Positions 22,258 through 46,385 of a stretch of DNA of 64,000 bases are shown piece by piece (position 1 is the first letter of the stretch; every line of letters begins with the position of its first letter). This DNA comes from Candidatus Poribacteria bacterium (GTDB taxonomy: Bacteria > Poribacteria > WGA-4E > WGA-3G), in the NCBI GenBank assembly GCA_965214045.1, contig OZ243935.1:2794904-2858903 (forward strand), in the 5' to 3' direction. The notes under the pieces were generated by a model. The model was not told the origin of the DNA. It made no database searches and worked only from the letters and a program-made list of their open reading frames with translations. Position numbers and translations under genes: made by a program.

Positions 22258-22403
22258 ATCTCCTCTTTGATCTGTGGTATTCAGTTGTTGTCTGTTCTAA
22301 CGTGTGTTACTTGACAGCATCACTTGGCATCAACCTGTCTCAAAGGTTTGGATAGGACTCGGAGTAGATCACCCCGAGTTGAGACCCTATCCGCCAAGTA
22401 TCA

Positions 22404-22443
22404 TGAAAACAAAAAAGGCGATGAAGTTCCCTCCACCGCCTTT
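22404..22443 (-). terminator. Rho-independent terminator downstream of the lamin-tail-domain protein gene
   Basis: Minus strand: AAGGCGGTGGAGGGAACTTCATCGCCTT hairpin followed by TTTTTTGTTTTC. Confidence 0.5.
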
Positions 22444-22502
22444 CTTGCTGGTTAAGGTTAGTTCAAACAAATTTTATCCCTGAAATAACCTCTTTGTTGC
22501 TA

Positions 22503-32936: not shown

Positions 32937-33227
32937 TCATTCTAACGTTTCAACCTCGTAAGGTGCCATCTGTGTCGCATCCGTTTTGCGGACGCGAAAT
33001 TGGATGTCCTTAAAGAGTCCATCATTATTTTTTCTCAAGCTTTCAAGGGATTCCCCTAAGGAACGTGCTGATATGTAGAAGATATACTCAAGGTCATTGC
33101 TGATTTTTTTTACGTGAAGAATAGGGGCATACCCCTTAAATGTCAAAACAACATCCGGTTCAGAGATAATTTCCAATTCTATCCATCCGGTCCCGACTTT
33201 TAAAGGCGGTGGTAATTCTTGAGGCAT
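32937..33227 (-). CDS. Hypothetical small protein (96 aa) within the defense cluster
   Basis: ORF only. 8-bp gap to the upstream gene. No recognisable motif. Confidence 0.3.
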   Translation of the reverse strand: MPQELPPPLKVGTGWIELEIISEPDVVLTFKGYAPILHVKKISNDLEYIFYISARSLGESLESLRKNNDGLFKDIQFRVRKTDATQMAPYEVETLE

Positions 33228-33235
33228 AGTTTCTC

Positions 33236-33751
33236 CTATAGATCATGCAGTGCTTCGGCAAGCTGATTTTGAATCGCTTGTTCCTCTGTAACAGGTTCGG
33301 ATTGCAGTAGGTCGTCAAGGGCATCAGAAAGGTTCCATATCGGGCTTTCGGAGCCTTCGTTTAGCATTTTCACGATGTGGGGGACACCTGCAGCTGCCAG
33401 ACCGTTGGCGATGTCCATCATGCGACGCGGCTTAAGGACAACCTCTAAGTTTCCTTCAACGGCTATCGCAATTAACATGATCGCTTGCGCCTGCCAGCCA
33501 TCCGTGTCAAAAATATTACCGCTAATGATGCTAACAGTGTCCTTTTTCTTTTTTGTTAAATGCATCGGTTTAAGATTCTGACGCGCTGCCAGCGAGAGTC
33601 CGGCAAACCAGAGATCCACCTTTCGTGGAAACGGAGTCTTAGCGGCTTTCGCACCTGCTCCCGTTTGGCAGTAATGATCGTAGTCATCCCGCTGTATAGT
33701 AGGTGATATGATTTGCATATTGCGAAAAGGATTATCGTAGTGTTGTGCCAT
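33236..33751 (-). CDS. Hypothetical protein (171 aa) within the defense cluster
   Basis: ORF tightly packed between the DndD-like and the 96-aa gene (9-bp and 8-bp gaps). No recognisable motif. Confidence 0.35.
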   Translation of the reverse strand: MAQHYDNPFRNMQIISPTIQRDDYDHYCQTGAGAKAAKTPFPRKVDLWFAGLSLAARQNLKPMHLTKKKKDTVSIISGNIFDTDGWQAQAIMLIAIAVEGNLEVVLKPRRMMDIANGLAAAGVPHIVKMLNEGSESPIWNLSDALDDLLQSEPVTEEQAIQNQLAEALHDL

Positions 33752-33760
33752 AGTGATCTC

Positions 33761-35884
33761 CTAAGATTCCGGCTGGATTTCTACCTCAACATCCGTGCGT
33801 CGCTTGCAGCGTTCACATTCTCCGAGGTCCTGGCACTCACACCGGAGTGCCTGCGGTTCATTTATATGTGGATCGTTTACTAATATAGTGGGGTAGTGTG
33901 CCGAATTTGTAATGGTGATGATACGTCCTGCTTCATCTGCTATAATATCTTCACAGTCTTTAATTTCGGAACGCGTCAGAAAGAGGATCAGTTGTGCACT
34001 TTCTTGAACAGCTGTTTTGAGAACGGAACGTTTGACAAACCCGTCCATCATTCCGAGGGGTGTATCAATCACGTTTGGTGCTATAACTTCACTGACTTTG
34101 GTGAGGGCGAGAATAAACGCTACCGTCAATGCTCTCCGAGAGGCACCATTTAAATCTTCCCTGGGGTTCAAAGCGCGTTTATTGGGTCCATAGACGAGAA
34201 TATTAAAATCTGGACTGATTTCTGCTTTCTGGATGATTGCTCCCTGTTCAGCGTCCGCGCCGATCATTTCCAGAAAAAATGTGTTCATCAACCGACTCAC
34301 TTCTTGCAATTCTTCGTTTGTGATTCGTTCGTATGAATTTTCAAGGATTTGCTCTATATCGCGCGTGGCATCTAATCTGGCTAATATTCCTTCCCCTCTT
34401 CTCTGTTTACTTATAAGGTTATTATGTGTTGCTGTTAAGGATCTCTGACTTTTTTTCAGGCGGTCAAGTTCTATTTCGTGCTCTATATGGGTACCGTTCA
34501 AAGAATCGCGTTGAGCAATATAGTCTTGCTTAGTGGCGCGAAGTTCTTGAATGTCGGTATCCCCTATACTCTCAAGTTGGACTTCCAATACGCTGAGTTC
34601 TTTTTCCAATTCTACGCGTCGAGCTTCAAGTTCATCGCGAAGGATTGCGTTTCTCTTGTATTCAGCGATCCAGTGTTGCTCATGGCTAATCTCTATCGGT
34701 TTCAGCTCCAATGAACCGAAATAAAGACCGGTCAGACGTGTTTGAAGTTCATCTGTTTCCCGACTCTCGCTAATGAGTCGTTCGATATGCGCTCTGCGCC
34801 GCTGTCCGTCTTCCGAGTGTTGATCCAGGGACTCTCCACAAATGCAGGCAGGACCTGTGAGTCGTTCTTCAAGCACAGGAATCGTTGTTTTCGGCAGTTT
34901 ACCCTGGTTGCTGAGTTCATCCAATTTCTCAAAACTTTTTTCCAAAACCGGGGCGAGCAGATCTCGGAATAGCGGCGGCTTTCTGAAGAATTGTGACTGC
35001 TCAGAAACCAGTTTTTCCTCTTGATTTTTGATTCTTTTTAGTTCTGCTTCTGATTTTTGCAGTCCGCGATTAAGTTCTTCTTGGTCCCCCTTAAGCAACG
35101 CTGCTTCAATGTCTTTATCAATTTCCGTTAGACTGTGATTGACTGCATCAAATTGAAGTTTCGCATCATCTCTTTCCTTTTCAAGACGTTCAACCTTTTC
35201 ATCTATCTCCCCCAATTCTGTAGCGATTTCGACAAGTTCTGTATCGGTTCCGATATTCTTTGAATCTCTATTGAGTCCAGCCATTGTCTTTTTCAAGTGA
35301 TCGAGAGCAGTCTCAATCACATCAAGGCCTAACAATGATTGAATGGCTTCCTGAACCTGTTTACGCTTATCTGTTCGTGAGTCTGCTTCAATGAAACTCA
35401 GTGCCCTGTCTCCGTCGGTGAAAAATACTTCACGCAAATTAGAGGGGACCAGGAGTCTGGCGATCTGTGCATCTGGTGTAGGTATTGGGGTGCTCCCAGT
35501 TTCTGTCAGTTCAAACAATTCTATTTTCGGGTTTTGTCTGAGCCCCTCGGTTGTCTCCTCTACGGAACGAATGAGGCAGTAGCGACTTGTCTTATTTCTA
35601 TTTGCCTCTGATGCAGGTGTTTCAAAATCGACTTGCACAGATATCGGAATTGCTTGACCATCAGGGACATCCCAATCAATTGGAAATAGTCGGTGTCCTC
35701 TACCTTTATCCGGTAGGGCATCATCGCCGTAGAGAGCCCATTGTAGCGCGTTTAAAATGGTCGTTTTTCCGCTCTCATTGGAGGCGCGAATGACCGTGAG
35801 TTTTCTGTCGTCACTGGTCGAAAAATCTAATCTTAGGTCTCGTAGCAGTCGAAAGTTTTGAAATCTTGCCCTGATGAGTTTCAT
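33761..35884 (-). CDS. DndD-like SMC/ABC-type ATPase
   Basis: 707 aa. N-terminus MKLIRARFQNFRLLRDLRLDF...LTVIRASNESGKTTILNALQWALYGD matches the DndD/AAA_23 Walker A region. Long coiled-coil middle. C-terminal signature/D-loop region. Confidence 0.65.
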   Translation of the reverse strand: MKLIRARFQNFRLLRDLRLDFSTSDDRKLTVIRASNESGKTTILNALQWALYGDDALPDKGRGHRLFPIDWDVPDGQAIPISVQVDFETPASEANRNKTSRYCLIRSVEETTEGLRQNPKIELFELTETGSTPIPTPDAQIARLLVPSNLREVFFTDGDRALSFIEADSRTDKRKQVQEAIQSLLGLDVIETALDHLKKTMAGLNRDSKNIGTDTELVEIATELGEIDEKVERLEKERDDAKLQFDAVNHSLTEIDKDIEAALLKGDQEELNRGLQKSEAELKRIKNQEEKLVSEQSQFFRKPPLFRDLLAPVLEKSFEKLDELSNQGKLPKTTIPVLEERLTGPACICGESLDQHSEDGQRRRAHIERLISESRETDELQTRLTGLYFGSLELKPIEISHEQHWIAEYKRNAILRDELEARRVELEKELSVLEVQLESIGDTDIQELRATKQDYIAQRDSLNGTHIEHEIELDRLKKSQRSLTATHNNLISKQRRGEGILARLDATRDIEQILENSYERITNEELQEVSRLMNTFFLEMIGADAEQGAIIQKAEISPDFNILVYGPNKRALNPREDLNGASRRALTVAFILALTKVSEVIAPNVIDTPLGMMDGFVKRSVLKTAVQESAQLILFLTRSEIKDCEDIIADEAGRIITITNSAHYPTILVNDPHINEPQALRCECQDLGECERCKRRTDVEVEIQPES

Positions 35885-36126
35885 TGCGTAACCTCTGTCG
35901 TTGGGTTATCTGTATCACGTTTCCTCGCGAGAAAATCGCCAGCCTTATGGCATGCTTGGTTTACCTGTTTTTGAATGGTTGTTCTTTGTGCTTGATGTTC
36001 TCTCTCGGCACTGAGGATTTCAACGATTGCCTCAAGCACTTTTTTCCTGTAGCCGTCGCATCTTTCCTCAATAGATTCACATTCATTGAGAATCATCTTT
36101 ACCATTTTTTCCTTGTTATATGACAT
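35881..36126 (-). CDS. Hypothetical small protein (81 aa), translationally coupled (ATGA overlap) to the DndD-like ATPase
   Basis: ORF only. 4-bp overlap with the downstream gene start. Confidence 0.3.
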   Translation of the reverse strand: MSYNKEKMVKMILNECESIEERCDGYRKKVLEAIVEILSAEREHQAQRTTIQKQVNQACHKAGDFLARKRDTDNPTTEVTQ

Positions 36127-36137
36127 AATCTCCTCCG

Positions 36138-38282
36138 TTATACGTAAAGGGTTCTAACCAGTTGGTCGATGTGGCTTAAGGGTCCATCAGGTCTACCAAA
36201 GTTCTTCGCAAGGTAAGCGAACGCTTGAATCCGTTTGAGTTCGGACGCTATTAAGGCATGTGCGCGAGTGTCCAGATTATCCAAATCCGGGGGTAGCGCG
36301 ATAAAATCGTGGATTTCACTGTGCGTTTTGCTGGTCTTACTACACGTGCGGAGCAGCCTCCCGCGCCGCTGCGTCCACTGCCGTTCCACTGTGGTGCTCG
36401 CCAAAATAAAAGCCTTCTCAATTTCTGGGATATTCACGCCTTCATCAAGTACACGCTTTGCGGTTAAGACACGCAGCGTTCCTTCTTGAAAGGACTGAAT
36501 AATCTGTGCGGTTTTTTTACGGTCACCTGTTTCTTTGTAGGTCAGTTGATGAAACAGCACCCCGTGTCTGTTCAGTAAGGCGTTAACAGCTTTCAGCTGC
36601 TGCGGTGCCTTGTCAGAGGCGTAAATCAAGGTATGCTGGAGTTTGTTGAAATCTTCGCGTTGCGTTAAGACATCTTCTAACACGGCGACCTTATTTTCTG
36701 CGTTCTCCAAAAGTGCCCGACGGTCTCGGAGCAATTTCATAAGGTACACATTGTCCGCATCCTCGTTCTCCTGCATCCACGCATTTTTCCTGATCTCTTC
36801 CGTGAGAGCATACCACTCCTCCATTTCGTCCTCTGTGAGTTCTACCGGATGCACGTAGTATTCGTATTCAACGAGGCATCTGCCGATGGCTTCCTCAAGT
36901 GTGAACTCAAAAACAATAGGTCCGAAAAACGCAAATAACTGATCCGTGCCTTCTTCATCGTATTGACGGATCGGAGTTGCGGATAAACCTAATCGATAAT
37001 CGAAAAATTCAGGCGGATCGGTGATGAATCCTTCACTTCCGAGATTGTGGACTTCATCAGCAATGAGTAAGGTTTTACAATCGAATTTCTTCAGTTCCTC
37101 TTTAAAATTAGGACTGCAAAGGGTCTTATGAGAAACAATGGCGATCTCAATGTCGCTACTACCGAATCGAAGCCTCCGCTCAAGTTTCTTAAGTTCAGCT
37201 GCACGTCCCCTTGCTCCATTCACCTCAGTCAGATTAACTGGCTTCAGCCCAAAGGATGAAATTTCATCACACCACTGTTGGATGAGGGGTATATAGGGCG
37301 CGGCAACGACGATAAGCAGTGGTTTCTCCGTCTCATAGAGTCTATGTGCACAAATCATGGCAGCGATGGTTTTTCCTGAACCTGTTGCCATTTCTAATAT
37401 CCCTTGATGACCGCCTTCACACCACGCTTTCACAGCTCTCCCTTGATGTTCAAAGTCACCCTCCTCAAATTCCAGATATGATGGTATTGTAAATGAAGGA
37501 CGGGGCACCTTAAAGTCGTAAGTTGTAGAAGCTTCCTGTATAGCAGCAGCTTCCGCTTTGTAGAGTGTGTGAAAGTCGTCCTCTGTCGGTGGGATATCGG
37601 AGTTATAGGTTTTCAACAGATTTTCCTTAATTGCTTGTGGTATCGGAATCACAGTGCACGTCTCATCGTAATTCGTCCAAAATTGCTTGAACTGATCGCA
37701 CAATTTTTCTGTAATATAGTATTGGTTACCATCTTCCCACGATTTGGAGATGGACATCTGCTCAATATTTTTCTGAATACCGGCGTAGGTCATATTGCTG
37801 GAGCCGTGTGCTGCGATAACATCGTCACCCTCGTGAAAGAGCCAGACCTTGGGGTGGAAAAGCGCATCTTTCATCAAAGCGATTTTGATTTCCACGCGTC
37901 TGTGACGCAGCATCCATGAGAGGCATTTCAGCGTATGCTGCGCAATAGCGTTTTCGGTAACAACAAAATCTTCTAAAGCTGTGTTGACGATATCCTCTAC
38001 GGAGGCTACGCCTTCTGCTATTGCCGCTTTGTCTTCAGGGCGGAGCAGCGGACTGATAATCAGACGCAAACTTTCGTCTGCACAGTTTATGAACGTTGCT
38101 AATCCTGGCGCAAGGGACACCAGAATTTCACTCGAAAAGAAACCTATCATGCAATCAACATGCGTAGCAGACTGAAAGCACGGAATTAGGACATCTTCTG
38201 TCGCGGGATCCTTTGGCAACATGTAAAGGGGTCGAATATCGGGTATCGCCCGAAGTGTCATCCCATGATTTTTTCTTTTCAT
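36138..38282 (-). CDS. Phospholipase-D-family nuclease domain fused to an SF2 (DEAD/DEAH) helicase
   Basis: 714 aa. N-terminal HxK...GSxN (HPKVWLFHEG...GSSNMTYAG). Helicase motifs I MATGSGKTIAAM, II IADEVHN, VI QRRGRLLR. Confidence 0.65.
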   Translation of the reverse strand: MKRKNHGMTLRAIPDIRPLYMLPKDPATEDVLIPCFQSATHVDCMIGFFSSEILVSLAPGLATFINCADESLRLIISPLLRPEDKAAIAEGVASVEDIVNTALEDFVVTENAIAQHTLKCLSWMLRHRRVEIKIALMKDALFHPKVWLFHEGDDVIAAHGSSNMTYAGIQKNIEQMSISKSWEDGNQYYITEKLCDQFKQFWTNYDETCTVIPIPQAIKENLLKTYNSDIPPTEDDFHTLYKAEAAAIQEASTTYDFKVPRPSFTIPSYLEFEEGDFEHQGRAVKAWCEGGHQGILEMATGSGKTIAAMICAHRLYETEKPLLIVVAAPYIPLIQQWCDEISSFGLKPVNLTEVNGARGRAAELKKLERRLRFGSSDIEIAIVSHKTLCSPNFKEELKKFDCKTLLIADEVHNLGSEGFITDPPEFFDYRLGLSATPIRQYDEEGTDQLFAFFGPIVFEFTLEEAIGRCLVEYEYYVHPVELTEDEMEEWYALTEEIRKNAWMQENEDADNVYLMKLLRDRRALLENAENKVAVLEDVLTQREDFNKLQHTLIYASDKAPQQLKAVNALLNRHGVLFHQLTYKETGDRKKTAQIIQSFQEGTLRVLTAKRVLDEGVNIPEIEKAFILASTTVERQWTQRRGRLLRTCSKTSKTHSEIHDFIALPPDLDNLDTRAHALIASELKRIQAFAYLAKNFGRPDGPLSHIDQLVRTLYV

Positions 38283-38318: not shown

Positions 38319-39572
38319 TCAGTGTTGGTTTGCCCCTTTGCGAGCGTTACATTGTCTGCAAAGTGTTTGGGCGTTTTCAAGAGTTGTTTTCCCACCATCC
38401 GCGTGAGGAGTTATGTGATCAGCTTCCATTTTATCAAATTCGATTTTTTGGTTGCATCCTTGACAAGTCTCATTGTCTCTACGCCAAATCACAATTCGTT
38501 CGTCACGAGAGAAAGCACGTTGTGAGTCTTTTCGCACTAAGTGCTGGATGTCTCGGAGGAATCGTCTTTTATATACTTCATGTCGCTTTTCGAGGTTAGG
38601 TTTTGTCCCACCTGAGCGGATGAAAGCTTCAATGTAATCATACATATCTCTATCCCAAAGACTTTTGCCTGCAGCAAGTAATTCACTGGGATCTGATATA
38701 ACTGACCGCCTCTCTTCTTCAAAGGCAACGTAAAAATCAGCGAAGTCAATCTCGTGATCTCGGATAACATAGGACTTATTCATTTCCGAAATTAGTAAAT
38801 ATAAGTCTACAAAGCCCCACTTAACGTCCATGTCGGGAGGACGATTTTCCAAAACTTTTTCCATATATCCTAAGTGCCGTCGAACTTTTTTGGCAACAGA
38901 TCCATTGTGGTCAAAATTCTGATTATTCCTGTACATTTTGGTGAGACTCGGTGCCTTGACATCCGTTGGTCCTTGTGCTATCTCCAGACGCGTTACTACA
39001 GCGGCCAGGTCATGCCACCCAAATCTCTTTTCTGAAAGGAAGGTTAATGGAAAAACACGATGGTTATCTCCTAAGTTTGCTATGAAATCTCGCATTTTAC
39101 CCGGCATAGCGTTTCGTTTTTCTACAGGATTCAAAGACAGTCCTTCTTGCAATCTTAGAAAAAGATCTCGTATATCTAAATCTGATGCATCCTCAACCTC
39201 AACTAAATTAAGCTCAAATATTGCAAATTGATCCTGAATATCGCTTGGCAATTCTGAGAATTTCTTACCTGATAAGTCCCCAAAATTAGGTATGTCTCTT
39301 GATGCTTCACCCAGGACATACTGATCATCATGGAAATCCCAAATAGCATTCAGCCTTTGCTGTCCATCAACAACCTCATGCTCATACTCAGAATCAGACG
39401 ATACTCGGAGGTAAAATTTGGGCATATCATATTGTCGAAGTATTGAGTCAATAAGCAATTGCTTTTTTGCCTCATTCCAAACTGGAGTCCGCTGATACTG
39501 AGGTCTTGGATTTATCTTTGGCTTCCTTCTGGCAATTGTTTCAATTGTCCAATGTCTTGGTCGAGTTTTCAT
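38319..39572 (-). CDS. DUF262 (ParB-like, DGQQR motif) plus C-terminal HNH nuclease; GmrSD / SspE-like
   Basis: 417 aa. N-terminal VVDGQQRLNAI. C-terminal CQGCNQKIEFDKMEADHITPHADGGKTTLENAQTLCRQCNARKG. Confidence 0.65.
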   Translation of the reverse strand: MKTRPRHWTIETIARRKPKINPRPQYQRTPVWNEAKKQLLIDSILRQYDMPKFYLRVSSDSEYEHEVVDGQQRLNAIWDFHDDQYVLGEASRDIPNFGDLSGKKFSELPSDIQDQFAIFELNLVEVEDASDLDIRDLFLRLQEGLSLNPVEKRNAMPGKMRDFIANLGDNHRVFPLTFLSEKRFGWHDLAAVVTRLEIAQGPTDVKAPSLTKMYRNNQNFDHNGSVAKKVRRHLGYMEKVLENRPPDMDVKWGFVDLYLLISEMNKSYVIRDHEIDFADFYVAFEEERRSVISDPSELLAAGKSLWDRDMYDYIEAFIRSGGTKPNLEKRHEVYKRRFLRDIQHLVRKDSQRAFSRDERIVIWRRDNETCQGCNQKIEFDKMEADHITPHADGGKTTLENAQTLCRQCNARKGANQH

Positions 39573-39621
39573 GGGTCAGCCCTACTCCGATTGCATAAAT
39601 AGATTCTGTGCAGTAGAAATA

Positions 39622-40473
39622 TCACTTATGGCACGCCAAACACGGTTCCTCATCATCCTCATCGTCAAGCACATCCGTGAAGATTTGCACCAAACGTTGA
39701 TTCGGTCTCTCGGATCGCTTGGCGGCAAGGGCTGCTGTAGCCTCCGCCTTAATCTGCGCGACACGCTCCGGTCGCGACAACTCCGCTAAACTCTCGCCTT
39801 GACACCACGTGAATTGTTGATCTGTCCTGGCATTTTCATTAGGCTCTTCTTCATATTTCCTCGCGAGCGCAAAGAGATCAGGATGCTTTTCTAATAAGCC
39901 GACCCACTCGGCTTTACGCTGGAAGAAACAGAAATAACACCCGGAACGCGTCCGCCACTCGTAATACGTCGGAAGCCCGAGCCCGCTCTCCTCCAGAATC
40001 CGATAGACATCCTCTTTCGTGATGCCGTCCTCTTTGAACGGATACTTCGGTTCAATGTTCCGTAAATCCGTGGTTCTCAGCGGTTTGTAACCCGTCCTGT
40101 CTTCGTCTGCACGGATGGCGATGTAGTGATACGCTTTGTCTGCGCCGATGTATTCCTCGAAAGGTATGATTTTCAGGTTAGCTGTGCACCAGCGGACTTG
40201 GGAGGACGGCAAGAGCCCCCCGTATAAGGCTAACCAGTGGTCAAAACTGCGGTCTTCATTCGGATCCGGATTCATATTGAGACGGACAATCGGTTTGCCG
40301 AGATGCGCTTCTAACCGATCCAGGTATTCATACGTCTCTGGAAGTTCCTTACCTGTATCCGAGAAAAAGTATTCCATCTCTATTTCCGGTTTTTCTCTAC
40401 GCATGTAAACCGCGAGGGCGGAACTGTCTTTGCCGCCAGAGAGTCCGAGGACGTGTCGGATATTTTCTGCCAT
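39622..40473 (-). CDS. PAPS-reductase-family ATP pyrophosphatase (SspD/DndC-like)
   Basis: 283 aa. PP-loop LSGGKDSSALAVYM. C-terminal CxxC (CLACHK). Confidence 0.65.
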   Translation of the reverse strand: MAENIRHVLGLSGGKDSSALAVYMRREKPEIEMEYFFSDTGKELPETYEYLDRLEAHLGKPIVRLNMNPDPNEDRSFDHWLALYGGLLPSSQVRWCTANLKIIPFEEYIGADKAYHYIAIRADEDRTGYKPLRTTDLRNIEPKYPFKEDGITKEDVYRILEESGLGLPTYYEWRTRSGCYFCFFQRKAEWVGLLEKHPDLFALARKYEEEPNENARTDQQFTWCQGESLAELSRPERVAQIKAEATAALAAKRSERPNQRLVQIFTDVLDDEDDEEPCLACHK

Positions 40474-40546
40474 GTCTCCTCCTACGAGTCAGTTGTGCAG
40501 AGGCGTATAAAACACGAGGCACAACCGAACAGGGTATGCTACGGTG

Positions 40547-43500
40547 TTAAATTGCCCTTTCGTTCTCAAATGCCTGCATCAGTTTTTGTGAGATACGCGC
40601 CAAAACAGCGAGTCGGAATCCGTGATTTTTCTCTGCGTCCAGTTCATCAAAAGCCGTCTCAATCGCGCGTTCCAATCCAACTGCCTGTGCCTCGGCAGTT
40701 GCGGGTAAAGTGACGACCTGTTCTTGTTCGGGTTGGTTTCGGGTTGTAATACCGATCCGAATCGCTTCACCTGTCGAGGTTTCAGTATGACCGGGTTGAT
40801 CGTAAGACACGGCTTCAAGGTGTCGGAACTTCCGTGCAAGATGTGAAAGATTATTTTGGAATTGGGCTTTATCTGTGTCTAACCATTTATCCGGCGGTTT
40901 TTTCGCGAGATAACTCGCGAGAGCGACAAGCCAGCTTTTGAAATCGTGTCCACCGCTATGGATGTTGATTAAGAATCCCTTGAGGTCGGTTTCGATCGCG
41001 ACCGGTAACAGGACTTCAGCTCTACAGACGAGGGCATCGCGGAGTGTCTCTGATGTGAGATCAAACGCTGTCGCTAACATCTCCTCAAGAGAATCCAATA
41101 GACGGTCGTATGCCTGATTTAACTCGGATAACGCCCCTTGCAGCGTCCCGAAAAATTGTGAAACGCCGTGGGGATCCGTTGCTGTCTCTGCCTTAAAAGC
41201 CGGGAACCCGAGTGCTGCTGGCAGCTGTTTAAAGAGGAGTTCATCAGGTTCGCGTGCATTTCCGAGGGTGGCACGGAGATTTTGAGCAGCTTCACTGAGT
41301 TCTTGCGTGGTCCGCGTGTACTGCGGGAGTTCGCTGATCGTCTGGACCAACGGCACGACAACCGTCAAGAGATCCGGTTTTTCAGAGGCTTCAGCGGTAT
41401 CGAGCGCGCCTAAAAATTGGGGGAACAGGTCGGCACGGATATCCGTCATCCGAAAACGTTTCAGTTCAAAGCGTTCTGGTCTTTTAATTAACCTTTCAAA
41501 GACGGGGATCGTCCAGTTCGGGATGAAGGATCCGTTTTCATAGAGGGCGATCTCTGTTTTGTAGTGAAGTATCACCGCACATAACAGGATAGGCAGCGGT
41601 CCCTCGCGGGCACCAATAGGCGGTTTCATCAGGTCTGTGTAGAGGTTAGGCAACGGCTGCCGTCTGTCTTCACACGTTTCAAGGAACTGCTCAATCGCTT
41701 CCCATATCGGTCGGACATCGTTTGTCGCGTCAGGTGAGGGCGGATGAAACCGCCACATATCCGATCCTGGAATTTGACGATGGATGCCTGTTTCTAAGAG
41801 AAGCGACCGGTAGATACTCATTTCAGCGGGGTAACCCTCTATACCGAGATTATCTTCGGCTTCCTTTTCAAGCATCGCTTGGATGAGTTTCCGCCTCGCG
41901 GTTGTAACAGCACCGGAGACTTTCCGTCTGTTAATGAGTTCGTGCCGAATCACAGGCGTTTTGGGGTAGACAGCATCGCAGATTTCTGAGAGATATCCAT
42001 TTCTCTCACGCAGCGACTTGATGGGGATCTCTTTTCCCTTATGATACCATTGACACGGATTGTCAGTACCGCCTTTACCTTTAAAGAGTGACGTTACTTC
42101 TTCAGATACACTGCGTTCCGCTTCTGAGGAACGGATTGCGAGTTCACGTCTGGCGGTTTTATCGCCTTCAAGTTCTTCCGTATTCTGCGAGACCCAGTGC
42201 AAACACGCAAGTTCTCTGACGGCACCGTATAGCGTATCTGTGGATGTTGGCATCGCAAGGAGTACCTCCTCGCGGCTTTCGAGGTTTTCACGTTTCGCTT
42301 TTTCGAGGATTTGCTTACCTTCGTTTTCATCCCCCGGCAATGCATAGAGCACAAGTCCATCTGCCGAATCAAGAGGTGCTGCGAGGGTATCCTCAAAGTT
42401 GTCAAGGTCTGTATAACGCACTGTGAAATAGCGGAGGGTGCCTTTCTCAAAAAGATGTCTGCGTGCGATGAGAGGGCGCGGCGGTATGAAATCTGACAAA
42501 TAGGTCATCAATCTTTCGTTTCGATTGAGCTGCCCTTCTGCATGCTGGAGCCGCTCTTCGATATTAATATCGCTGCCTTCCCAGAGCGCATAGGTCTTAT
42601 TATGCCGCCGATGGATCACAATTGAACGGGCTTGGATGTCTTCAAGTGTCCTGCTAAATTCCTCCTTAAATCCTGCCGTCTGATCGTCTAAAGCATAACG
42701 GAGGACCCCTTCTGAAGCGTTTAGGTTTCTACTGACTTCTCCGACAATCCCAAGCAGACCGATGGTTTTGATGAGTTTCACGAGCAGCGGCGATGGATCC
42801 GCCAATCGGTTGATAGCCATCTCAACTTCGAGCCACCGGTCCCCTTCGCGCGAGGTATAGAGTCGGTTTCCCAGACTGAGCTGGAGATAATCGTAGAGGT
42901 CGGGGATTGAAAACATCGGCAGCGTGTTCCCGTCATAAGACCGGTTTTCCAGAAAATCGCGGAGTCCATGCGGTTCAACTGCATTCAGGAAAGCAAAGAG
43001 AGAGCGTTCATTTTGTGCGAATTTTCGGAAAACGGGTCCGATGAGGAGTGCTACAGTTGGGTGAAGCGGTAGACAATTTCGGAGCAACTCGCGAAAGGCA
43101 GCCGCATCGCCGAATGGATTGAGATTGAGATCAGAGGCAGGCAGCAGCTGCAGGTCTCCGATACCTTCCGTGTCCTTGTTTTGGATAGCGGAGCCAATGA
43201 GTTGAAGGATTTGATCTGCCGGTTCCACGAAGGCGAGATCTTCAAACCGTCCTTGAACCTTTGCCCATTCCTCGCGTTGTGAGGCTGCTGCTCTGTTTGC
43301 ATAGTGTTCAAAAGCTTGATGCAAGATAGTCATGAAAAAGAGGGGTGTCTCTGCACTCCGTGTCGCAAATTCAGCGAGGGTTTGTAGCACAAACACATCG
43401 CCTTGCGCAGGATGTTGTGCGGCGTGTTCAAGGAACTTGCCAAGTTCGTCAACCACGAGTAACAAACCGCCACCGCCTTTTTTCTTGATTGTCAGTGTTG

Positions 43501-44056
43501 CAGATTCAAAAAGTGCTGTGACTTCAGTTGCTGACAAGGGATTGCCGTTTTTCTCTGTTTTCAAGAGTGCTTGGATGTCTTTTCGCAGGGAGTGTCTTGC
43601 GGTGATATGAAAGGTTTGAAGTCCGTGTTCTAATCCTTGCAAGAGGGCGTGTGTAATGGATGCGCGTTCGCCAGAGATAAGCACTGGACAAAAACCAACT
43701 GCCGTTTTTTCTCTGTTCCCGTTTAGGCTCAAAAAACGTTCGTATAATGGCGGATCGCTGTGTTTGAGTAATTTCAGAGCGTGTTTTGTTGTGGCGGTGT
43801 CAGTGTTTCCGAAGAGTTTTGCGGCGAAGAGTGCGAACGCAGATTTCCCCGCTCCGTAAGGACCCGTGAGGGACCACGCTTTTGATGTCGCCTCGTTCTC
43901 TCGTGCTGTGATAAGCCGAGCAAGGGTCTCCCGTGCTTTGACAGTCACAACGTAGCCATCTAAGGCGTTTTCGGTATAGAAATCGCGTGCCAGATGAACA
44001 GAACGTTGAAAGCGTTTGGTGATGTGAAAAATATCTGACAAGGGTGTGTTAGCCAT
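40547..44056 (-). CDS. Large P-loop ATPase (SspC/BrxC-like, DUF499-type)
   Basis: 1169 aa. Walker A LTGPYGAGKSAFALF (~aa 66). Walker B LLLVVDELGKF (~aa 210). 8-bp overlap with the upstream DUF4007 gene. Confidence 0.55.
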   Translation of the reverse strand: MANTPLSDIFHITKRFQRSVHLARDFYTENALDGYVVTVKARETLARLITARENEATSKAWSLTGPYGAGKSAFALFAAKLFGNTDTATTKHALKLLKHSDPPLYERFLSLNGNREKTAVGFCPVLISGERASITHALLQGLEHGLQTFHITARHSLRKDIQALLKTEKNGNPLSATEVTALFESATLTIKKKGGGGLLLVVDELGKFLEHAAQHPAQGDVFVLQTLAEFATRSAETPLFFMTILHQAFEHYANRAAASQREEWAKVQGRFEDLAFVEPADQILQLIGSAIQNKDTEGIGDLQLLPASDLNLNPFGDAAAFRELLRNCLPLHPTVALLIGPVFRKFAQNERSLFAFLNAVEPHGLRDFLENRSYDGNTLPMFSIPDLYDYLQLSLGNRLYTSREGDRWLEVEMAINRLADPSPLLVKLIKTIGLLGIVGEVSRNLNASEGVLRYALDDQTAGFKEEFSRTLEDIQARSIVIHRRHNKTYALWEGSDINIEERLQHAEGQLNRNERLMTYLSDFIPPRPLIARRHLFEKGTLRYFTVRYTDLDNFEDTLAAPLDSADGLVLYALPGDENEGKQILEKAKRENLESREEVLLAMPTSTDTLYGAVRELACLHWVSQNTEELEGDKTARRELAIRSSEAERSVSEEVTSLFKGKGGTDNPCQWYHKGKEIPIKSLRERNGYLSEICDAVYPKTPVIRHELINRRKVSGAVTTARRKLIQAMLEKEAEDNLGIEGYPAEMSIYRSLLLETGIHRQIPGSDMWRFHPPSPDATNDVRPIWEAIEQFLETCEDRRQPLPNLYTDLMKPPIGAREGPLPILLCAVILHYKTEIALYENGSFIPNWTIPVFERLIKRPERFELKRFRMTDIRADLFPQFLGALDTAEASEKPDLLTVVVPLVQTISELPQYTRTTQELSEAAQNLRATLGNAREPDELLFKQLPAALGFPAFKAETATDPHGVSQFFGTLQGALSELNQAYDRLLDSLEEMLATAFDLTSETLRDALVCRAEVLLPVAIETDLKGFLINIHSGGHDFKSWLVALASYLAKKPPDKWLDTDKAQFQNNLSHLARKFRHLEAVSYDQPGHTETSTGEAIRIGITTRNQPEQEQVVTLPATAEAQAVGLERAIETAFDELDAEKNHGFRLAVLARISQKLMQAFENERAI

Positions 44057-45032
44057 AACACCTCTCTAAAAGTTCCATTTCATTAAGATCTCTCTGTCGA
44101 TACAGTTGTTTCAGACCCGTCGTTTCATCGTATTCAAACGCGCCATCTGTGAGTTCTGCGAGGTCCTCAAGATAGACCGTCAGGGTATCCTCATCTAATC
44201 TGAAAACGCGTCCAGGACTCGATGGGGCATACATCAGTTCTGAGAACGCCAGTGAGTTTCTCTGGGAGAATTCGTTCGCCGAAAACGTGTCTTGTGCCCA
44301 AGGGTATGGATGTTTCCAAAATGTGTTCAATGCCCAGGCGACGACTGCCGTGGAAAGTGTTTCTTTTTCGCCACGCTGGAATTCATAACCATCTCCACCC
44401 ATTAATTCCGAGATCAGGTTCAACTCGACGAGCGGGCAGTCGAAGGTATCTTCAACGACAGCAGTGGTATCGCGTGATTGACAGTAAGTTCGGAGAAAAC
44501 AATTGACATCGCGCCGGAGTGTATTGTCGGAGACCAACCGCATCCCGGGTCTCTGTTGCTGTGCCCACCTGTAGACCTTTTGTGTAAATATATCCGGCAT
44601 AAACGGATTATCTGTTAAAATATTGAATGCCCAATACCAGGCTGTGGCTTGGGTGCCGCCTGTTGCGATCTGGTAGTGGATGATCCATAGCGTCGCCGGG
44701 TCTTCAAGGTATGGGTCGAATCCTTCTTCAGCAAAAATGTCTTTACCGAGTTGAGTCGGTGCAAATTGCCCGCGTCGGGACTGGGCGGTATCCTCTTTGA
44801 TGAGTCGAGTTGCCCGACACCAATGCCGAATGGAGTCCACCATGTTTTTTCCGACCCCTAAAGTAACGGAAGCATCCGCAGCTGAAAAAATGGTCGGATT
44901 TTCTATCACGGCATCAACGCCTTTCTTCAACCATGTATAGCGAAAAGGGAAGGTCTGGTGTCCTGAAAAAGAGGGGGAGATCGGTGGGATGTTACGCATA
45001 ACCTGCCCCCCTGGAGTATCTGGGCGGGTCAT
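44049..45032 (-). CDS. DUF4007-family protein (SspB-like)
   Basis: 327 aa. N-terminus SFSGHQTFPFRYTWLKKG matches the DUF4007 signature as I recall it. First gene of the operon. Confidence 0.5.
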   Translation of the reverse strand: MTRPDTPGGQVMRNIPPISPSFSGHQTFPFRYTWLKKGVDAVIENPTIFSAADASVTLGVGKNMVDSIRHWCRATRLIKEDTAQSRRGQFAPTQLGKDIFAEEGFDPYLEDPATLWIIHYQIATGGTQATAWYWAFNILTDNPFMPDIFTQKVYRWAQQQRPGMRLVSDNTLRRDVNCFLRTYCQSRDTTAVVEDTFDCPLVELNLISELMGGDGYEFQRGEKETLSTAVVAWALNTFWKHPYPWAQDTFSANEFSQRNSLAFSELMYAPSSPGRVFRLDEDTLTVYLEDLAELTDGAFEYDETTGLKQLYRQRDLNEMELLERCYG

Positions 45033-45159: not shown

Positions 45160-45169
45160 GGGGGGGGGG
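45160..45169. repeat. G10 homopolymeric tract ~130 bp upstream of the defense operon start
   Basis: GTGGGGGGGGGGT read directly at 45160-45169 in the 460-bp intergenic region. Confidence 0.85.
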
Positions 45170-45491
45170 TAGATTGGCTTGTTAAATCAGGTGCCCAGAC
45201 GGCTTCCGGGGGTACGAATAACCTCTTGAGGCAAGGATTCTTATCAAGCATACGTGCTATTCTGATTATAGTGTTCATATCTCGATTTTTCATTCGCTTT
45301 ATTGATTAAGTACAGAGTGATGGGAATATTCAGATTTTTGTTCCTGATGTCAAGTTTACTTAAAATTTTAGCACGGATTCGTATTAAATGTCAAATTTTT
45401 TTGCTTTACTGCATCTATCATTAGTTTTTAGAATTTTATATGGATCGGATGTTCTAAAAGTTTAAGGGATATCGCAGGAAAAATTGGAGGG

Positions 45492-46385
45492 TTAGTAAAT
45501 TGAAAGTTCTCGGTAGTTTCCTTGAAACACTTCCCTAACATGCCAACCAATGAACTGTACCTCTGGATAATGGGATTGTCTTTGCGGGAGAAGAAGCGTT
45601 TTGCCGTGATACCGCTGCAGCCATTCCTTAAAGCCTTTTGTTCCGTGCGCGTCATCTGATACAAGGATTTGTCGTTGCTTGGATAGCGTAAAAGCTCCGC
45701 GATCAAATAATTCGTGATGTAACACGCATAAAGCAAGGCCATTCACTGCTTCACTGGGACCGCCATGCGATTTCCATTTGATATGTGCAGCTTCTAACGC
45801 GATAGGCGTATTTCCTAATTTCACATCGAAGCCGCATACTGCACATTTACGCTCGTAAGCTCTTAGGATGTTTTCTCGGAAATTGAGAGAGCGTCTTTTC
45901 GTCTCAAAAACTTGGAATGGTGGTTGAATGTTGACAGCTTGTAAAATTTCGCTGTGGCGTGTGAGAGGGAAGTGATCATCCAGCAAATCGTAGATTATTT
46001 CAAAGGCGAGTCTTGAATCGTTTTGAAGTTGATTTGCGATTGATTTAGGGAAACCACCGACTCCATGATGTCGTAAATCGGTTACGTAGGCATCTCCACT
46101 GGAAGTTTGTCGAATTCGATCGGTATTCCTTATCTCCCAGATTTCGTCGTTTTGCAGCCGCCAAAATGGGTGTTGAGGATGATAACTTTTGCGCCACGGT
46201 CCAAATTCTCTCAGCAAATTGCGAAGATCGTCCTCTGTAGCCTCAAATGAAATGTGTTTATCTTCACCGCTCAGCAATTTTCCGATTGCATACAATATTA
46301 ACAGTGGCTTGTGGGCTGCCCTTTGGTCGCCTCTTTTCCATACATTCAGATTCTGGAATTTATGAATGATTTCTTCTCGTGTCAT
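45492..46385 (-). CDS. HNH endonuclease with an N-terminal DNA-binding/sensor domain (type IV restriction-like)
   Basis: 297 aa. C-terminal CAVCGF...LEAAHIKWKSHGGPSEAVNGLALCVLHHELFDRGAF HNH motif. N-terminal HKPLLILYAIGKLL domain of unknown specificity. Confidence 0.6.
   Translation of the reverse strand: MTREEIIHKFQNLNVWKRGDQRAAHKPLLILYAIGKLLSGEDKHISFEATEDDLRNLLREFGPWRKSYHPQHPFWRLQNDEIWEIRNTDRIRQTSSGDAYVTDLRHHGVGGFPKSIANQLQNDSRLAFEIIYDLLDDHFPLTRHSEILQAVNIQPPFQVFETKRRSLNFRENILRAYERKCAVCGFDVKLGNTPIALEAAHIKWKSHGGPSEAVNGLALCVLHHELFDRGAFTLSKQRQILVSDDAHGTKGFKEWLQRYHGKTLLLPQRQSHYPEVQFIGWHVREVFQGNYRELSIY

What the first reader, a model, noticed from the sequence alone, without database searches (positions are those of the whole stretch)
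38319..45032. Compact Ssp-like core: short SspD-like (283 aa) and short SspE-like (417 aa) variants
The operon starts with the DUF4007 protein (FSGHQTFPFRYTWLKK). It overlaps the 1169-aa Walker A/B ATPase by 8 bp. After these come a PP-loop (SGGKDS) PAPS-reductase-like protein of only 283 aa and a DUF262(DGQQR)+HNH protein of only 417 aa.

Both of the last two are substantially shorter than the SspD and SspE proteins as I remember them. This suggests either a minimal variant or a different, related system such as a BREX-type-4-like BrxP plus GmrSD.
Basis: partly seen in the sequence, partly recalled or inferred. Interest (0 to 1): 0.7.

Follow-up and report, generated by a model that had tools for sequence, protein, structure and literature searches.

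The report
Ssp sulfur-DNA defence with new nuclease partner
This is a normal-sized SspBCD machine that puts sulfur marks on DNA, followed by a compact, apparently undescribed nuclease that travels with such machines in many bacteria. A second known effector module (PbeABCD) comes next, so one DNA mark seems to serve several anti-virus weapons.

Summary
The reading is half right.

- **SspB, SspC and SspD are canonical.** SspD at 283 aa is full length, not short. It matches the 277-position SspD profile end to end, and annotated sspD genes elsewhere are 264-299 aa.
- **The 417-aa protein is about half the size of characterised SspE** (771 and 818 aa), but it is not a truncated SspE. It is a distinct, well-conserved family built from a ParB-DUF262 NTPase (DGQQR), a helical domain and a classical zinc-finger HNH (PF01844).
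- **This family is tied to Ssp.** It is linked to an Ssp-type modification cluster in 21 of 22 informative loci from at least five phyla, usually directly after sspD.
- **A complete PbeABCD module follows in the window.** Its clade lies next to sspBCD in 12 of 12 informative loci, plus a Sphingomonadaceae plasmid. I found this pairing in no paper.
- **Other features:** a sulfur-binding-domain HNH nuclease upstream, and a poly-C tract before sspB whose length varies between relatives.
- **BREX type 4 is rejected.**

Most likely one phosphorothioate writer serves several swappable effectors. This is a new variant of a known kind, from a probable sponge symbiont (Poribacteria).

The parts
45492..46385 (-). 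SBD-HNH nuclease (297 aa): ScoMcrA-type sulfur-binding domain plus HNH_2. A candidate phosphorothioate-dependent endonuclease.
   Evidence: PDB ScoMcrA SBD 5zmm/5zmo at E 6e-8 to 3e-6; SprMcrA SBD 7cc9 at E 9e-5; TagI HNH. Pfam HNH_2 at E 6e-10. The 95%-identical orthologue in L020 carries PF26340 DNA-SBD_ScoMcrA. Found upstream of sspB in L001, L007, L008, L020, L028 and L045.
45365..45394 (-). Best sigma-70-like promoter match (TTGACA-18-TAAAAT with TG), in the 459-bp gap before sspB.
   Evidence: 11 of 12 matches. A consensus match only.
45160..45169 (-). Poly-C tract (10 C on the coding strand), 128 nt upstream of the sspB ATG.
   Evidence: The only 10-mer G/C run in the window. Same position but 8, 11, 12, 14 and 17 C in L020, L001, L007, L028 and L008. 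Flanked by invariant TTTAACAAG and ACTTTACA.
44049..45032 (-). SspB (DUF4007), 327 aa. The true start may be Met12.
   Evidence: Pfam DUF4007 at E 7e-86. PADLOC SspB at E 4.5e-96.
40547..44056 (-). SspC ATPase, 1169 aa. Overlaps sspB by 8 bp.
   Evidence: PADLOC SspC at 1081 bits, covering 13-1082 of the protein against positions 2-1053 of 1054. Walker A and B motifs.
39622..40473 (-). SspD, a PP-loop ATP pyrophosphatase (PAPS-reductase fold), 283 aa, full length.
   Evidence: PADLOC SspD at E 2.8e-113, covering 6-283 of the protein against positions 1-277 of 277. SGGKDS at residue 12.
38319..39572 (-). ParB-DUF262 (DGQQR) + helical ParBDB-like domain + zinc-finger HNH nuclease, 417 aa. A compact effector in the SspE position.
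36138..38282 (-). PbeA: HKD/PLD nuclease-like domain fused to an SF2 helicase, 714 aa.
   Evidence: PADLOC PbeA at 657 bits. Pfam ResIII, DEAD, Helicase_C and PLDc_2. TIGR04095 dnd_restrict_1 at E 8e-113, 378 bits, below its 600-bit cut-off.
35881..36126 (-). PbeB-like small protein, 81 aa.
   Evidence: Position and size match PbeB (66 aa in PMC6459918). Conserved between PbeA and PbeC in 16 loci. No HMM hit.
33761..35884 (-). PbeC: CxC-type ABC ATPase (DndD-like), 707 aa.
   Evidence: PADLOC PbeC at E 5.5e-54. TIGR03185 DndD at E 1.9e-31, 109 bits, below its 246-bit cut-off. CIC motif at 347-349.
33236..33751 (-). PbeD-like protein (DndE cognate?), 171 aa.
   Evidence: Position and size match PbeD (152 aa, PMC6459918). 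Conserved after PbeC in 12 loci. The orthologue in L021 has a weak PF27807 DNA_S_mod_dnd_assoc_4 hit. No hit for the window protein itself.
32937..33227 (-). Conserved 96-aa protein of unknown function.
   Evidence: Homologues follow pbeD in L020, L021 and L028 and occur in L003. No family hit.
31807..32892 (-). DGQHR (DndB-family, ParB-like) protein, 361 aa. The last gene of the co-directional array.
   Evidence: TIGR03187 DGQHR at E 4e-33. Pfam DndB at E 1.7e-16. DGQHR at residue 118. Orthologue in L028 at 75% identity.

Best explanation
The region is a phosphorothioate (PT) based defence island, probably in a Candidatus Poribacteria genome.

**The writer.** SspB, SspC and SspD are a canonical, full-length PT-writing module. 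They presumably draw sulfur from a housekeeping cysteine desulfurase, because no sspA lies nearby.

**The fourth gene.** This is not a truncated SspE. It belongs to a separate, widespread family of about 415 aa. It combines the sensor half shared by SspE, DndI, GmrSD and NsnA (a ParB-DUF262 NTPase with the P-x-Y-Q-R and DGQQR motifs, plus a helical DNA-binding domain) with a small classical HNH nuclease.

**Proposed mechanism (inferred).** The DUF262 module reads the PT status of DNA and, through NTP hydrolysis, gates the HNH nuclease. Unmarked invading DNA is then cut or nicked while PT-marked host DNA is spared.

**The second effector.** The same mark most likely also licenses the PbeABCD module that follows directly on the same strand: an HKD-helicase, a small protein, a CxC ABC ATPase and a DndE-like protein.

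**What is shown and what is inferred.**
- Shown: gene identities, domain architecture, intact catalytic motifs, and the conserved genomic linkage of both effector modules to sspBCD.
- Inferred: PT writing, PT sensing, the direction of regulation (PT-activated like SspE, or PT-released like DndI), and co-transcription.
For: **Identity of SspBCD**
-.
- SspD length is normal: end-to-end profile match. 62 plasmid homologues cover at least 80% of the 283 aa. Annotated sspD genes are 264-299 aa.

**Effector family**
- 1710 hits at E<=1e-5.
- 1057 representative clusters at E<=1e-30, mostly 400-440 aa.
- Invariant DGQQR, His385 and Asn399, with the four zinc-finger cysteines invariant or nearly so, across 81 sequences.
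- Confident model, pLDDT 94.

**Linkage of the effector to Ssp**
- The gene follows sspB-sspC-sspD on the same strand in Poribacteria, Chloroflexota, Gammaproteobacteria, Planococcus and Bryobacterales. Gaps are short where I measured them: 49 bp in the window, 17 bp in L044, 58 bp in L045.
- It stays linked in rearranged loci: L036 and L043 are convergent, and L043 carries two tandem copies.
- Further examples are L044 and L045/L046.
- An HNH-less homologue is paired with a separate SIR2 protein at the same position (L024). That fits a sensor plus swappable effector.

**Motif comparison**
- P23-x-Y25-Q26 mirrors the PT-sensing P61/Y63/Q64 of EcSspE and Y30/Q31 of StSspE (PMC13251355, PMC9646914).

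**Pbe linkage**
- 12 of 12 informative loci of this PbeA clade have sspBCD within 10 kb. In four of them sspD abuts pbeA directly.
- A Sphingomonadaceae plasmid carries sspABCD-pbeABCD with overlapping genes.
- Pbe activity depends on PT (PMC6459918).

**Operon structure**
- Ten co-directional genes with gaps of 49 bp or less between most neighbours (73 bp between sspC and sspD) or overlaps.
- The best promoter match lies before sspB, and no convincing minus-strand terminator lies inside the array.
Against: - No experiment. PT modification, the NTPase and the nuclease activity are all inferred.
- The P-x-Y-Q-R motif is a general DUF262 signature, so it does not prove PT sensing.
- One family member stands alone next to a primase-polymerase gene, with no Ssp within 10 kb (L016). 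The family can therefore exist without Ssp.
- Only the closest part of the family (above about 50% identity) was sampled for context. The 1057 clusters may include many members not linked to Ssp.
- Close Poribacteria relatives at the same chromosomal site lack the gene (L020, L028), so it is dispensable for SspBCD-Pbe.
- No sspA is nearby.
- An SBD-HNH nuclease, expected to cut PT-DNA, sits beside a PT writer. That is awkward unless their sequence contexts differ.
Confidence: 0.65

Rival explanations
1. The 417-aa protein is an autonomous GmrSD/BrxU-like type IV restriction enzyme that attacks modified phage DNA. It merely sits in the same defence island as Ssp.
For: - DUF262 plus nuclease is the GmrSD architecture.
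- PADLOC hits to restriction-enzyme and NsnA models.
- One stand-alone member, L016.
- JGI annotates one member as McrA.
Against: - Linked to an Ssp-type writer in 21 of 22 informative loci across at least five phyla. It usually lies directly downstream of sspD on the same strand, and it stays linked when the orientation is rearranged.
- sspBCD occurs in only about 3% of genomes (PMC12914056), so chance adjacency is negligible.
Confidence: 0.12
2. The whole ten-gene array is one integrated system. PbeABCD is the true restriction effector of SspBCD. The DUF262-HNH and DGQHR proteins are DndB-like regulators or back-ups that tune PT levels rather than restrict phage.
For: - SspBCD abuts PbeABCD directly, without the DUF262-HNH gene, in syntenic relatives L020, L021 and L028, and in L035.
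- DndB is a ParB-family regulator of PT levels, and one analysis treats SspE as the DndB equivalent (PMC10853773).
- DndB-like genes recur in these loci.
Against: - The HNH catalytic and zinc-binding residues are invariant or nearly invariant in 81 sequences, which argues for a working nuclease.
- Most Ssp + DUF262-HNH loci have no Pbe at all, so the protein cannot be only a Pbe accessory.
Confidence: 0.15
3. The cluster is a BREX-type-4-like system (BrxP/BrxC plus GmrSD) rather than Ssp.
For: - SspC also matches one BrxC model at 669 bits.
- BrxP is effectively an SspD-SspB fusion, and BrxC is an SspC homologue (PMC12914056).
- Some distant relatives (L010) carry a BrxP-like PAPS reductase.
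Against: - SspB and SspD are separate genes, and each matches its Ssp model end to end. SspD scores 376 bits against 41 for BrxP.
- No PglZ or BrxL in any window protein I scanned, which covers all array genes and the largest other ORFs.
Confidence: 0.02
4. The 283-aa and 417-aa proteins are truncated or degenerate remnants of a decaying Ssp system.
For:
- One relative (L009) shows a frameshift in the DUF262-HNH gene.
Against: - Both are full length relative to their families.
- Catalytic motifs are intact.
- Orthologues at 50-90% identity keep the same lengths.
Confidence: 0.02

Closest known systems
SspABCD-SspE (Vibrio cyclitrophicus FF75, E. coli 3234/A, Streptomyces yokosukanensis)
   Same: - Same writer module: SspB/DUF4007, the SspC ATPase and SspD with its PP-loop, in the same order.
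- The effector sits next to sspD.
- The effector has an N-terminal DUF262 with DGQQR and a P-x-Y-Q motif, followed by a helical domain and a His-Me/HNH-type nuclease.
   Different: - The effector is 417 aa, against 771-818 aa.
- The nuclease is a canonical zinc-finger HNH (PF01844), not DUF1524.
- Sequence similarity is limited to about 80 residues of the DUF262 core.
- No sspA nearby.
- Whether PT activates it is unknown.
DndBCDE-DndI (Salmonella enterica Cerro 87)
   Same: A single-protein effector combining a DUF262 NTPase with a nuclease and coupled to a PT writer. A Tyr in the N-terminal motif senses PT.
   Different: - DndI pairs with Dnd (double-stranded PT), is 596-656 aa and uses DUF1524.
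DndCDEA-PbeABCD (Haloterrigena jeotgali); CxC-ABC/DndE systems of Aravind and colleagues
   Same: The window's PbeA (HKD + SF2 helicase), small PbeB, PbeC (CxC ABC ATPase) and PbeD-sized protein match in order, size and HMMs.
   Different: - Here, and in 12 other loci plus one plasmid, the module lies next to sspBCD rather than dndCDEA.
- I did not find that pairing in the searchable literature.
Menshen NsnA / GmrSD / BrxU (ParB-DUF262 + ParBDB proteins)
   Same: Same two-domain sensor core. The HNH-less homologue in L024 matches the NsnA profile end to end. BrxU is the best fold match.
   Different: - No NsnB or NsnC partners.
- Fused to HNH.
- Genomically tied to a PT writer rather than autonomous.
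SBD-HNH PT-dependent endonucleases (ScoMcrA, SprMcrA, EcoWI)
   Same: The upstream 297-aa protein has the sulfur-binding domain, including the HK motif, and an HNH_2 nuclease.
   Different: - The sulfur-pocket 'YP' is 'HP' here.
- Such enzymes are reported next to dnd PT-writer clusters in less than 3.6% of cases (PMC7461809). This one is conserved beside sspBCD in seven Poribacteria-type loci.

Membership tests
SspBCD phosphorothioation module | SspB: DUF4007 protein | tested here: met
   Pfam DUF4007 at E 7e-86 over positions 1-288 of 288. PADLOC SspB at E 4.5e-96.
SspBCD phosphorothioation module | SspC: an ATPase of about 1050-1200 aa with Walker A/B motifs that matches SspC better than BrxC/PglY | tested here: met
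   SspC at 1081 bits against 669 for the best BrxC model. GPYGAGKS at residue 65 and LLVVDE at residue 199.
SspBCD phosphorothioation module | SspD: a PP-loop PAPS-reductase-fold protein, full length, closer to SspD than to DndC, BrxP or CysH | tested here: met
   SspD at 376 bits over positions 1-277 of 277. BrxP 41 bits and DndC 27 bits. CysH 19 bits. No tree was built; classification is by profile scores.
SspBCD phosphorothioation module | Adjacent cysteine desulfurase SspA | tested here: not met
   No class-V aminotransferase in the island. Known to be replaceable by IscS (PMC8092258, PMC12914056), so it is not disqualifying.
SspBCD phosphorothioation module | Single-strand PT (for example CpsCA) present in the DNA | not testable with these tools
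   Needs LC-MS/MS or PT-sensitive sequencing.
SspE (as characterised) | N-terminal DUF262 with the DGQQR NTPase motif | tested here: met
   GmrSD_N at E 1.7e-16. DGQQR at 69-73 of the ORF, invariant in 81 homologues.
SspE (as characterised) | PT-sensing hydrophobic pocket with a conserved Tyr (Y30 in StSspE, Y63 in EcSspE) | tested here: inconclusive
   P23-Q-Y25-Q26-R27 is invariant or nearly so and mirrors P61/Y63/Q64 (PMC13251355). It is also the generic DUF262 motif.
SspE (as characterised) | Large C-terminal domain with a DUF1524-type HNH motif; total length about 770-820 aa | tested here: not met
   417 aa. The C-terminus is PF01844 HNH with CxxC...CxxC. No DUF1524 hit.
SspE (as characterised) | Sequence homology to SspE proteins beyond the DUF262 core | tested here: not met
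SspE (as characterised) | Encoded next to sspBCD | tested here: met
   49-bp gap after sspD in the window. Linked in 21 of 22 informative loci.
BREX type 4 (BrxP-BrxC-PglZ-BrxL) | BrxP fusion of PAPS reductase with DUF4007 | tested here: not met
   The two domains are on separate proteins, with SspC between them.
BREX type 4 (BrxP-BrxC-PglZ-BrxL) | PglZ and BrxL genes | tested here: not met
   None in any window protein scanned, which covers all array genes and the largest other ORFs.
GmrSD/BrxU type IV restriction enzymes | DUF262 + DUF1524 in one protein, acting without a cognate modification module | tested here: not met
   DUF262 is present, the nuclease is PF01844 rather than DUF1524, and the gene is tied to a modification cluster.
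PbeABCD / CxC-ABC-DndE system | PbeA: HKD nuclease fused to an SF2 helicase | tested here: met
   PADLOC PbeA at 657 bits. Pfam ResIII, DEAD and Helicase_C, with PLDc_2 just below its cut-off (25.8 against 27 bits).
PbeABCD / CxC-ABC-DndE system | PbeC: ABC ATPase with a CxC zinc hook | tested here: met
   PADLOC PbeC at E 5.5e-54. CIC at 347-349 in the coiled-coil region.
PbeABCD / CxC-ABC-DndE system | Small PbeB and DndE-like PbeD at the expected positions | tested here: inconclusive
   81-aa and 171-aa ORFs at the right places and conserved in relatives. No HMM hit for the window proteins. Weak PF27807 on the L021 orthologue.
PbeABCD / CxC-ABC-DndE system | Paired with dndCDEA, as originally described | tested here: not met
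   No DndC, DndD or DndE in the island. sspBCD is the neighbour here and in 12 of 12 related loci.
SBD-HNH PT-dependent endonucleases | ScoMcrA-type sulfur-binding domain with the HR/HK and YP motifs, plus HNH | tested here: inconclusive
   SBD match at E 6e-8, HK present, YP replaced by HP, HNH_2 present. Motif roles are taken from PMC7461809.

The most novel reading that the evidence does not exclude
A single Ssp phosphorothioate writer acts as a hub for a swappable set of effectors.

- The effectors are a previously unnamed DUF262-ParBDB-HNH nuclease family, PbeABCD (so far tied only to Dnd), GHKL ATPases, and SIR2 partners of HNH-less sensors.
- Expression is put under a phase-variable poly-C switch.
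- The hub is guarded by an SBD-HNH enzyme that reads PT in a different context.

If so, many 'orphan' sspBCD clusters (84% in one survey) and many 'solitary' pbeAC modules (58%) would be halves of undescribed Ssp-based defence systems.
Probability: 0.3. Interest if true: 0.75.

Novelty: new variant of a known kind. Interest (0 to 1): 0.6.

Why it matters
- **Unexplained clusters.** Surveys found that about 84% of sspBCD clusters have no known restriction partner (PMC8092258). About 58% of PbeAC modules have no dnd partner (PMC6459918).
- **What this locus offers.** The locus and its relatives suggest two concrete answers. One is a compact DUF262-HNH family that follows sspD across phyla. The other is direct SspBCD-PbeABCD coupling. 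Both are testable in E. coli with existing Ssp tools.
- **A tractable model.** At half the size of SspE, with a classical HNH, the compact protein would be a convenient model for how a ParB-like NTPase reads a backbone sulfur and gates a nuclease.
- **Annotation gap.** PADLOC labels this protein with generic restriction-enzyme and NsnA models, and public records call its relatives DUF262 or HNH proteins. Such systems may therefore be under-called.

Tried and rejected
- **Megablast of 31-46 kb against E. coli genomes:** no match.
- **Exact-protein look-ups** for the window's 417-aa protein and its 100%-identical cluster representative: not on record. The source contig could therefore not be fetched. 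The Poribacteria assignment rests on nearest relatives.
- **PDB sequence searches** with the whole protein, a family profile and the N-terminal domain alone: only HNH hits, and no DUF262 structure.
- **PADLOC SspE absence.** I first took 'no PADLOC SspE hit' as evidence against SspE membership and then rejected that argument. A Vibrio plasmid SspE-type protein next to sspABCD also hits no SspE model and no PDB SspE. The absence is therefore uninformative, and 'SspE' is itself heterogeneous.
- **Insertion scar.** Intergenic sequences were compared between loci with and without the gene: no shared or duplicated junction.
- **Is SspFGH the same as PbeABCD?** Rejected. SspF/G/H are described as lacking annotated homology apart from a Walker A motif and an FtsK-like C-terminus.
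- **Rfam and tRNA scans** of the island: nothing.
- **Phylogeny.** No formal tree of the PAPS-reductase domain was built, because profile scores already separate SspD from DndC, BrxP and CysH by a wide margin.

Full report
**1. The observation**

All four ORFs lie on the minus strand exactly as described.
- SspB/DUF4007: 44049-45032, 327 aa.
- The ATPase: 40547-44056, 1169 aa, overlapping sspB by 8 bp.
- The PP-loop protein: 39622-40473, 283 aa.
- The DUF262+HNH protein: 38319-39572, 417 aa.

The quoted motifs are all present: FSGHQTFPFRYTWLKK at residue 22, GPYGAGKS and LLVVDE, SGGKDS at residue 12, and DGQQR at residue 69. Pfam assigns DUF4007, PAPS_reduct, and GmrSD_N + HNH.

**2. SspB, SspC and SspD are canonical, and SspD is not short**

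PADLOC models give the following.
- SspB: E 4.5e-96.
- SspC: 1081 bits, against 669 for the best BrxC model.
- SspD: E 2.8e-113. Residues 6-283 cover positions 1-277 of a 277-position profile.
- On SspD, BrxP scores 41 bits and DndC 27. CysH scores 19.

SspD homologues occur on 95 plasmid records, and 62 of them cover at least 80% of the 283 aa. Annotated sspD genes in Trichormus, Thermomicrobium, Vibrio and a Sphingomonadaceae plasmid are 264-299 aa.

The Ssp assignment stands, but the 'short SspD' idea is wrong.

No PglZ or BrxL was found in any window protein I scanned, which covers all array genes and the largest other ORFs. SspB and SspD are separate proteins. BREX type 4 is rejected.

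No cysteine desulfurase is nearby. Published Ssp systems use IscS in that situation (PMC8092258, PMC12914056).

**3. The 417-aa protein**

It is about half the size of characterised SspE: StSspE is 771 aa and EcSspE is 818 aa (PMC13251355, PMC9646914). It is not a truncation.

*Family size and conservation.* It belongs to a tight family of about 415 aa.
- 1710 hits at E<=1e-5, with the top 120 at 52-100% identity and nearly all 410-425 aa.
- 1057 representative clusters at E<=1e-30.
- In 81 aligned members the following are invariant: P23, Y25, W31, D68-G-Q-Q-R72, H385, N399, and the Cys pair C369/C372. C404/C407 are nearly invariant (at least 90%).

*Structure.* An AlphaFold model is confident, with pLDDT 94 and pTM 0.88. 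It shows three parts.
- An alpha/beta N-domain.
- A helical domain at about residues 180-340.
- A beta-beta-alpha HNH.

*Sequence comparison.* No solved DUF262 protein is detectable by sequence. BLASTP against a Vibrio plasmid SspE-type protein aligns only 81 residues around P-x-Y/F-Q-R...DGQQR.

*Architecture.* An HNH-less homologue (L024, 343 aa) matches the Menshen NsnA profile end to end. In the terms of PMC12065111 the architecture is therefore ParB-DUF262 + ParBDB + HNH. That is the sensor and DNA-binding core shared by NsnA, DndB, GmrSD and SspE, here fused to a small classical HNH in place of DUF1524.

*A caveat I checked.* The absence of a PADLOC 'SspE' hit is uninformative. The Vibrio SspE-type protein also hits none.

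**4. Is it functionally tied to Ssp?**

*Species-representative genomes.* A scan returned 19 loci. tblastn with the window's proteins and PADLOC scans show the gene linked to an Ssp-type writer in 17 of 18 informative loci.
- It lies directly after sspB-sspC-sspD on the same strand in Poribacteria, Gammaproteobacteria and Bryobacterales.
- It lies after a BrxP-like/SspB/SspC/SspA variant in two Chloroflexota loci.
- It lies after SspB/SspC/SspD-like genes in Planococcus.

*Exceptions.* L016 stands alone beside a primase-polymerase gene. L018 is too short to judge.

*Further loci.* All of these agree.
- L036: the gene sits between pbeD and a convergent sspDCB.
- L043: two tandem copies beside a convergent sspA-sspC-sspB plus PAPS-reductase cluster.
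- L044.
- L045/L046.

*Tally.* 21 of 22 informative loci are linked. sspBCD occurs in about 3% of genomes (PMC12914056), so this is not chance.

*Effector swapping.* In L024 the HNH-less form is followed by a SIR2 protein at the same position. That is the pattern expected of a sensor with exchangeable effectors.

*Annotation.* Public records call these proteins 'DUF262 domain-containing' or 'HNH endonuclease family'. I found no paper describing a DUF262-HNH partner of sspBCD.

**5. The surroundings**

The array continues on the same strand with gaps of 49 bp or less between most neighbours (73 bp between sspC and sspD) or overlaps.
- PbeA, an HKD-SF2 helicase: 657 bits on PADLOC PbeA. TIGR04095 gives E 8e-113 but scores 378 bits, below its 600-bit cut-off.
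- An 81-aa protein.
- PbeC, a CxC ABC ATPase with CIC at 347-349.
- A 171-aa protein.
- A 96-aa protein.
- A DGQHR/DndB-family protein.

Sizes and order match PbeABCD, where PbeB is 66 aa and PbeD is 152 aa (PMC6459918). They also fit its re-annotation as a CxC-ABC/DndE system (PMC10853773).

*Pbe is linked to Ssp.* Relatives of this PbeA were fetched by look-up and by a metagenome scan. They have sspBCD within 10 kb in 12 of 12 informative loci.
- Abutting sspD directly, with no DUF262-HNH: L020, L021, L028 and L035.
- Convergent: L023, L024, L025, L030, L031, L032 and L036.
- Pbe first: L034.

A Sphingomonadaceae plasmid carries sspA-B-C-D followed by PbeA, a 74-aa ORF, PbeC and a 148-aa ORF, with overlapping genes.

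The Pbe paper looked only for dndCD and reported 58% 'solitary' PbeAC. I found no paper linking Pbe to Ssp. SspFGH is a different module.

*Same site, different effectors.* L020 and L028 are syntenic with the window. L020 shares the flanking FGE-sulfatase and PhyH genes, and both carry the SBD-HNH gene at 95% identity. Both lack the DUF262-HNH gene. L001, L008 and L045 carry it but lack Pbe. The window combines both effector modules on one writer.

**6. Upstream**

*SBD-HNH.* The 297-aa gene at 45492-46385 matches the sulfur-binding domain of ScoMcrA (5zmm/5zmo, E 6e-8 to 3e-6) and of SprMcrA. It also carries an HNH_2 nuclease. Its orthologue carries PF26340.

Such PT-dependent nucleases are reported to be rarely coupled to dnd writers, in under 3.6% of cases (PMC7461809). 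Here the pairing recurs in seven Poribacteria-type loci: the window, L001, L007, L008, L020, L028 and L045. The 'HK' sulfur-pocket motif is present, but 'YP' reads 'HP'.

*Intergenic region.* The 459-bp gap before sspB holds two features.
- The best promoter-like site in the region.
- A poly-C tract with 10 C in the window and 8, 11, 12, 14 and 17 C in relatives. It lies between invariant flanks.

**7. Mechanism (inferred)**

SspBCD, with a housekeeping desulfurase, writes PT. The DUF262 NTPase of the 417-aa protein reads PT through the P-x-Y-Q pocket and DGQQR-dependent hydrolysis, and gates its HNH against unmarked DNA.

Whether PT activates it (as for SspE) or releases it from self DNA (as for DndI) cannot be told from sequence. 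PbeABCD probably uses the same mark, since its activity is PT-dependent (PMC6459918).

The rival explanations are an autonomous type IV enzyme, a DndB-like regulator, BREX type 4, and a decaying remnant. Each is weighed in its own entry.

**8. Verdict**

- The locus is a new variant of a known kind.
- The source is probably a Candidatus Poribacteria sponge symbiont. Its nearest relatives are Poribacteria. The neighbouring genes (FGE-sulfatase, PhyH) also recur in the syntenic relatives.

Noticed in passing
window 45492-46385 (-): An SBD-HNH protein (ScoMcrA-type sulfur-binding domain + HNH_2) lies directly upstream of the PT-writing operon and is conserved there in seven Poribacteria-type loci. 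Such PT-dependent nucleases are reported to be rarely coupled to PT writers. The sulfur-pocket 'YP' motif is 'HP' here.
   Followed up: partly
window 45160-45169: A poly-C tract (10 C) lies 128 nt upstream of sspB. The same element, between invariant flanks (TTTAACAAG...ACTTTACA), has 8 to 17 C in five relatives. It is either a candidate phase-variable switch or homopolymer assembly noise.
   Followed up: partly
L002-L007, L010, L012, L014, L015, L044 (about 11.3-13.7 kb in locus coordinates): In 11 related loci the gene after DUF262-HNH encodes a conserved protein of about 810 aa with a weak GHKL (HATPase_c_3) match and no PADLOC hit. L043 has a 608-aa HATPase_c_3 protein plus a helicase nearby. 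It may be a further partner. It is absent from the window.
   Followed up: partly
L024:5349-7237: An HNH-less homologue (343 aa) matches the NsnA profile end to end and is followed by a SIR2_2 protein, between pbeD and sspD. Many members of about 330-360 aa in the representative search also lack the HNH.
   Followed up: partly
L001, L002, L003, L006, L008, L045 (downstream of DUF262-HNH); window 31807-32892: DndB-family (ParB-like) proteins recur in these Ssp loci. A form of about 470-490 aa occurs in relatives, and a different 361-aa DGQHR protein ends the window's array.
   Followed up: partly
L039 (Trichormus variabilis plasmid NZ_CP047243.1) and L040 (Thermomicrobium roseum NC_011961.1): Other sspBCD clusters carry yet other downstream sets. 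In Trichormus these are DndB-like, DEAD helicase, ATP-binding protein, PLD and cysteine desulfurase. In Thermomicrobium they are DUF4007, PglZ and BrxL.
   Followed up: no
L009:933-2169: The DUF262-HNH gene is split into two frames (residues 1-255 and 257-415). This is either a frameshifted pseudogene or an assembly error in a low-coverage contig.
   Followed up: no
window 46755-48353 (+) and 52479-54125 (-): Two paralogous AAA_35/AAA_16 ATPases (532 and 548 aa) flank the right side of the island. Their function is unknown.
   Followed up: no
window 16290-17432 (-) and 6977-7849 (-): A YhgA-like transposase (PF04754), and a 290-aa protein with a partial PADLOC 'mad2' match (E 6e-16).
   Followed up: no
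window 18541-25526 (-): Two very large proteins (1238 and 1007 aa) carry dockerin, FlgD-Ig, LDL-receptor-repeat and lamin-tail domains. Such eukaryote-like or adhesion features are typical of sponge symbionts.
   Followed up: no
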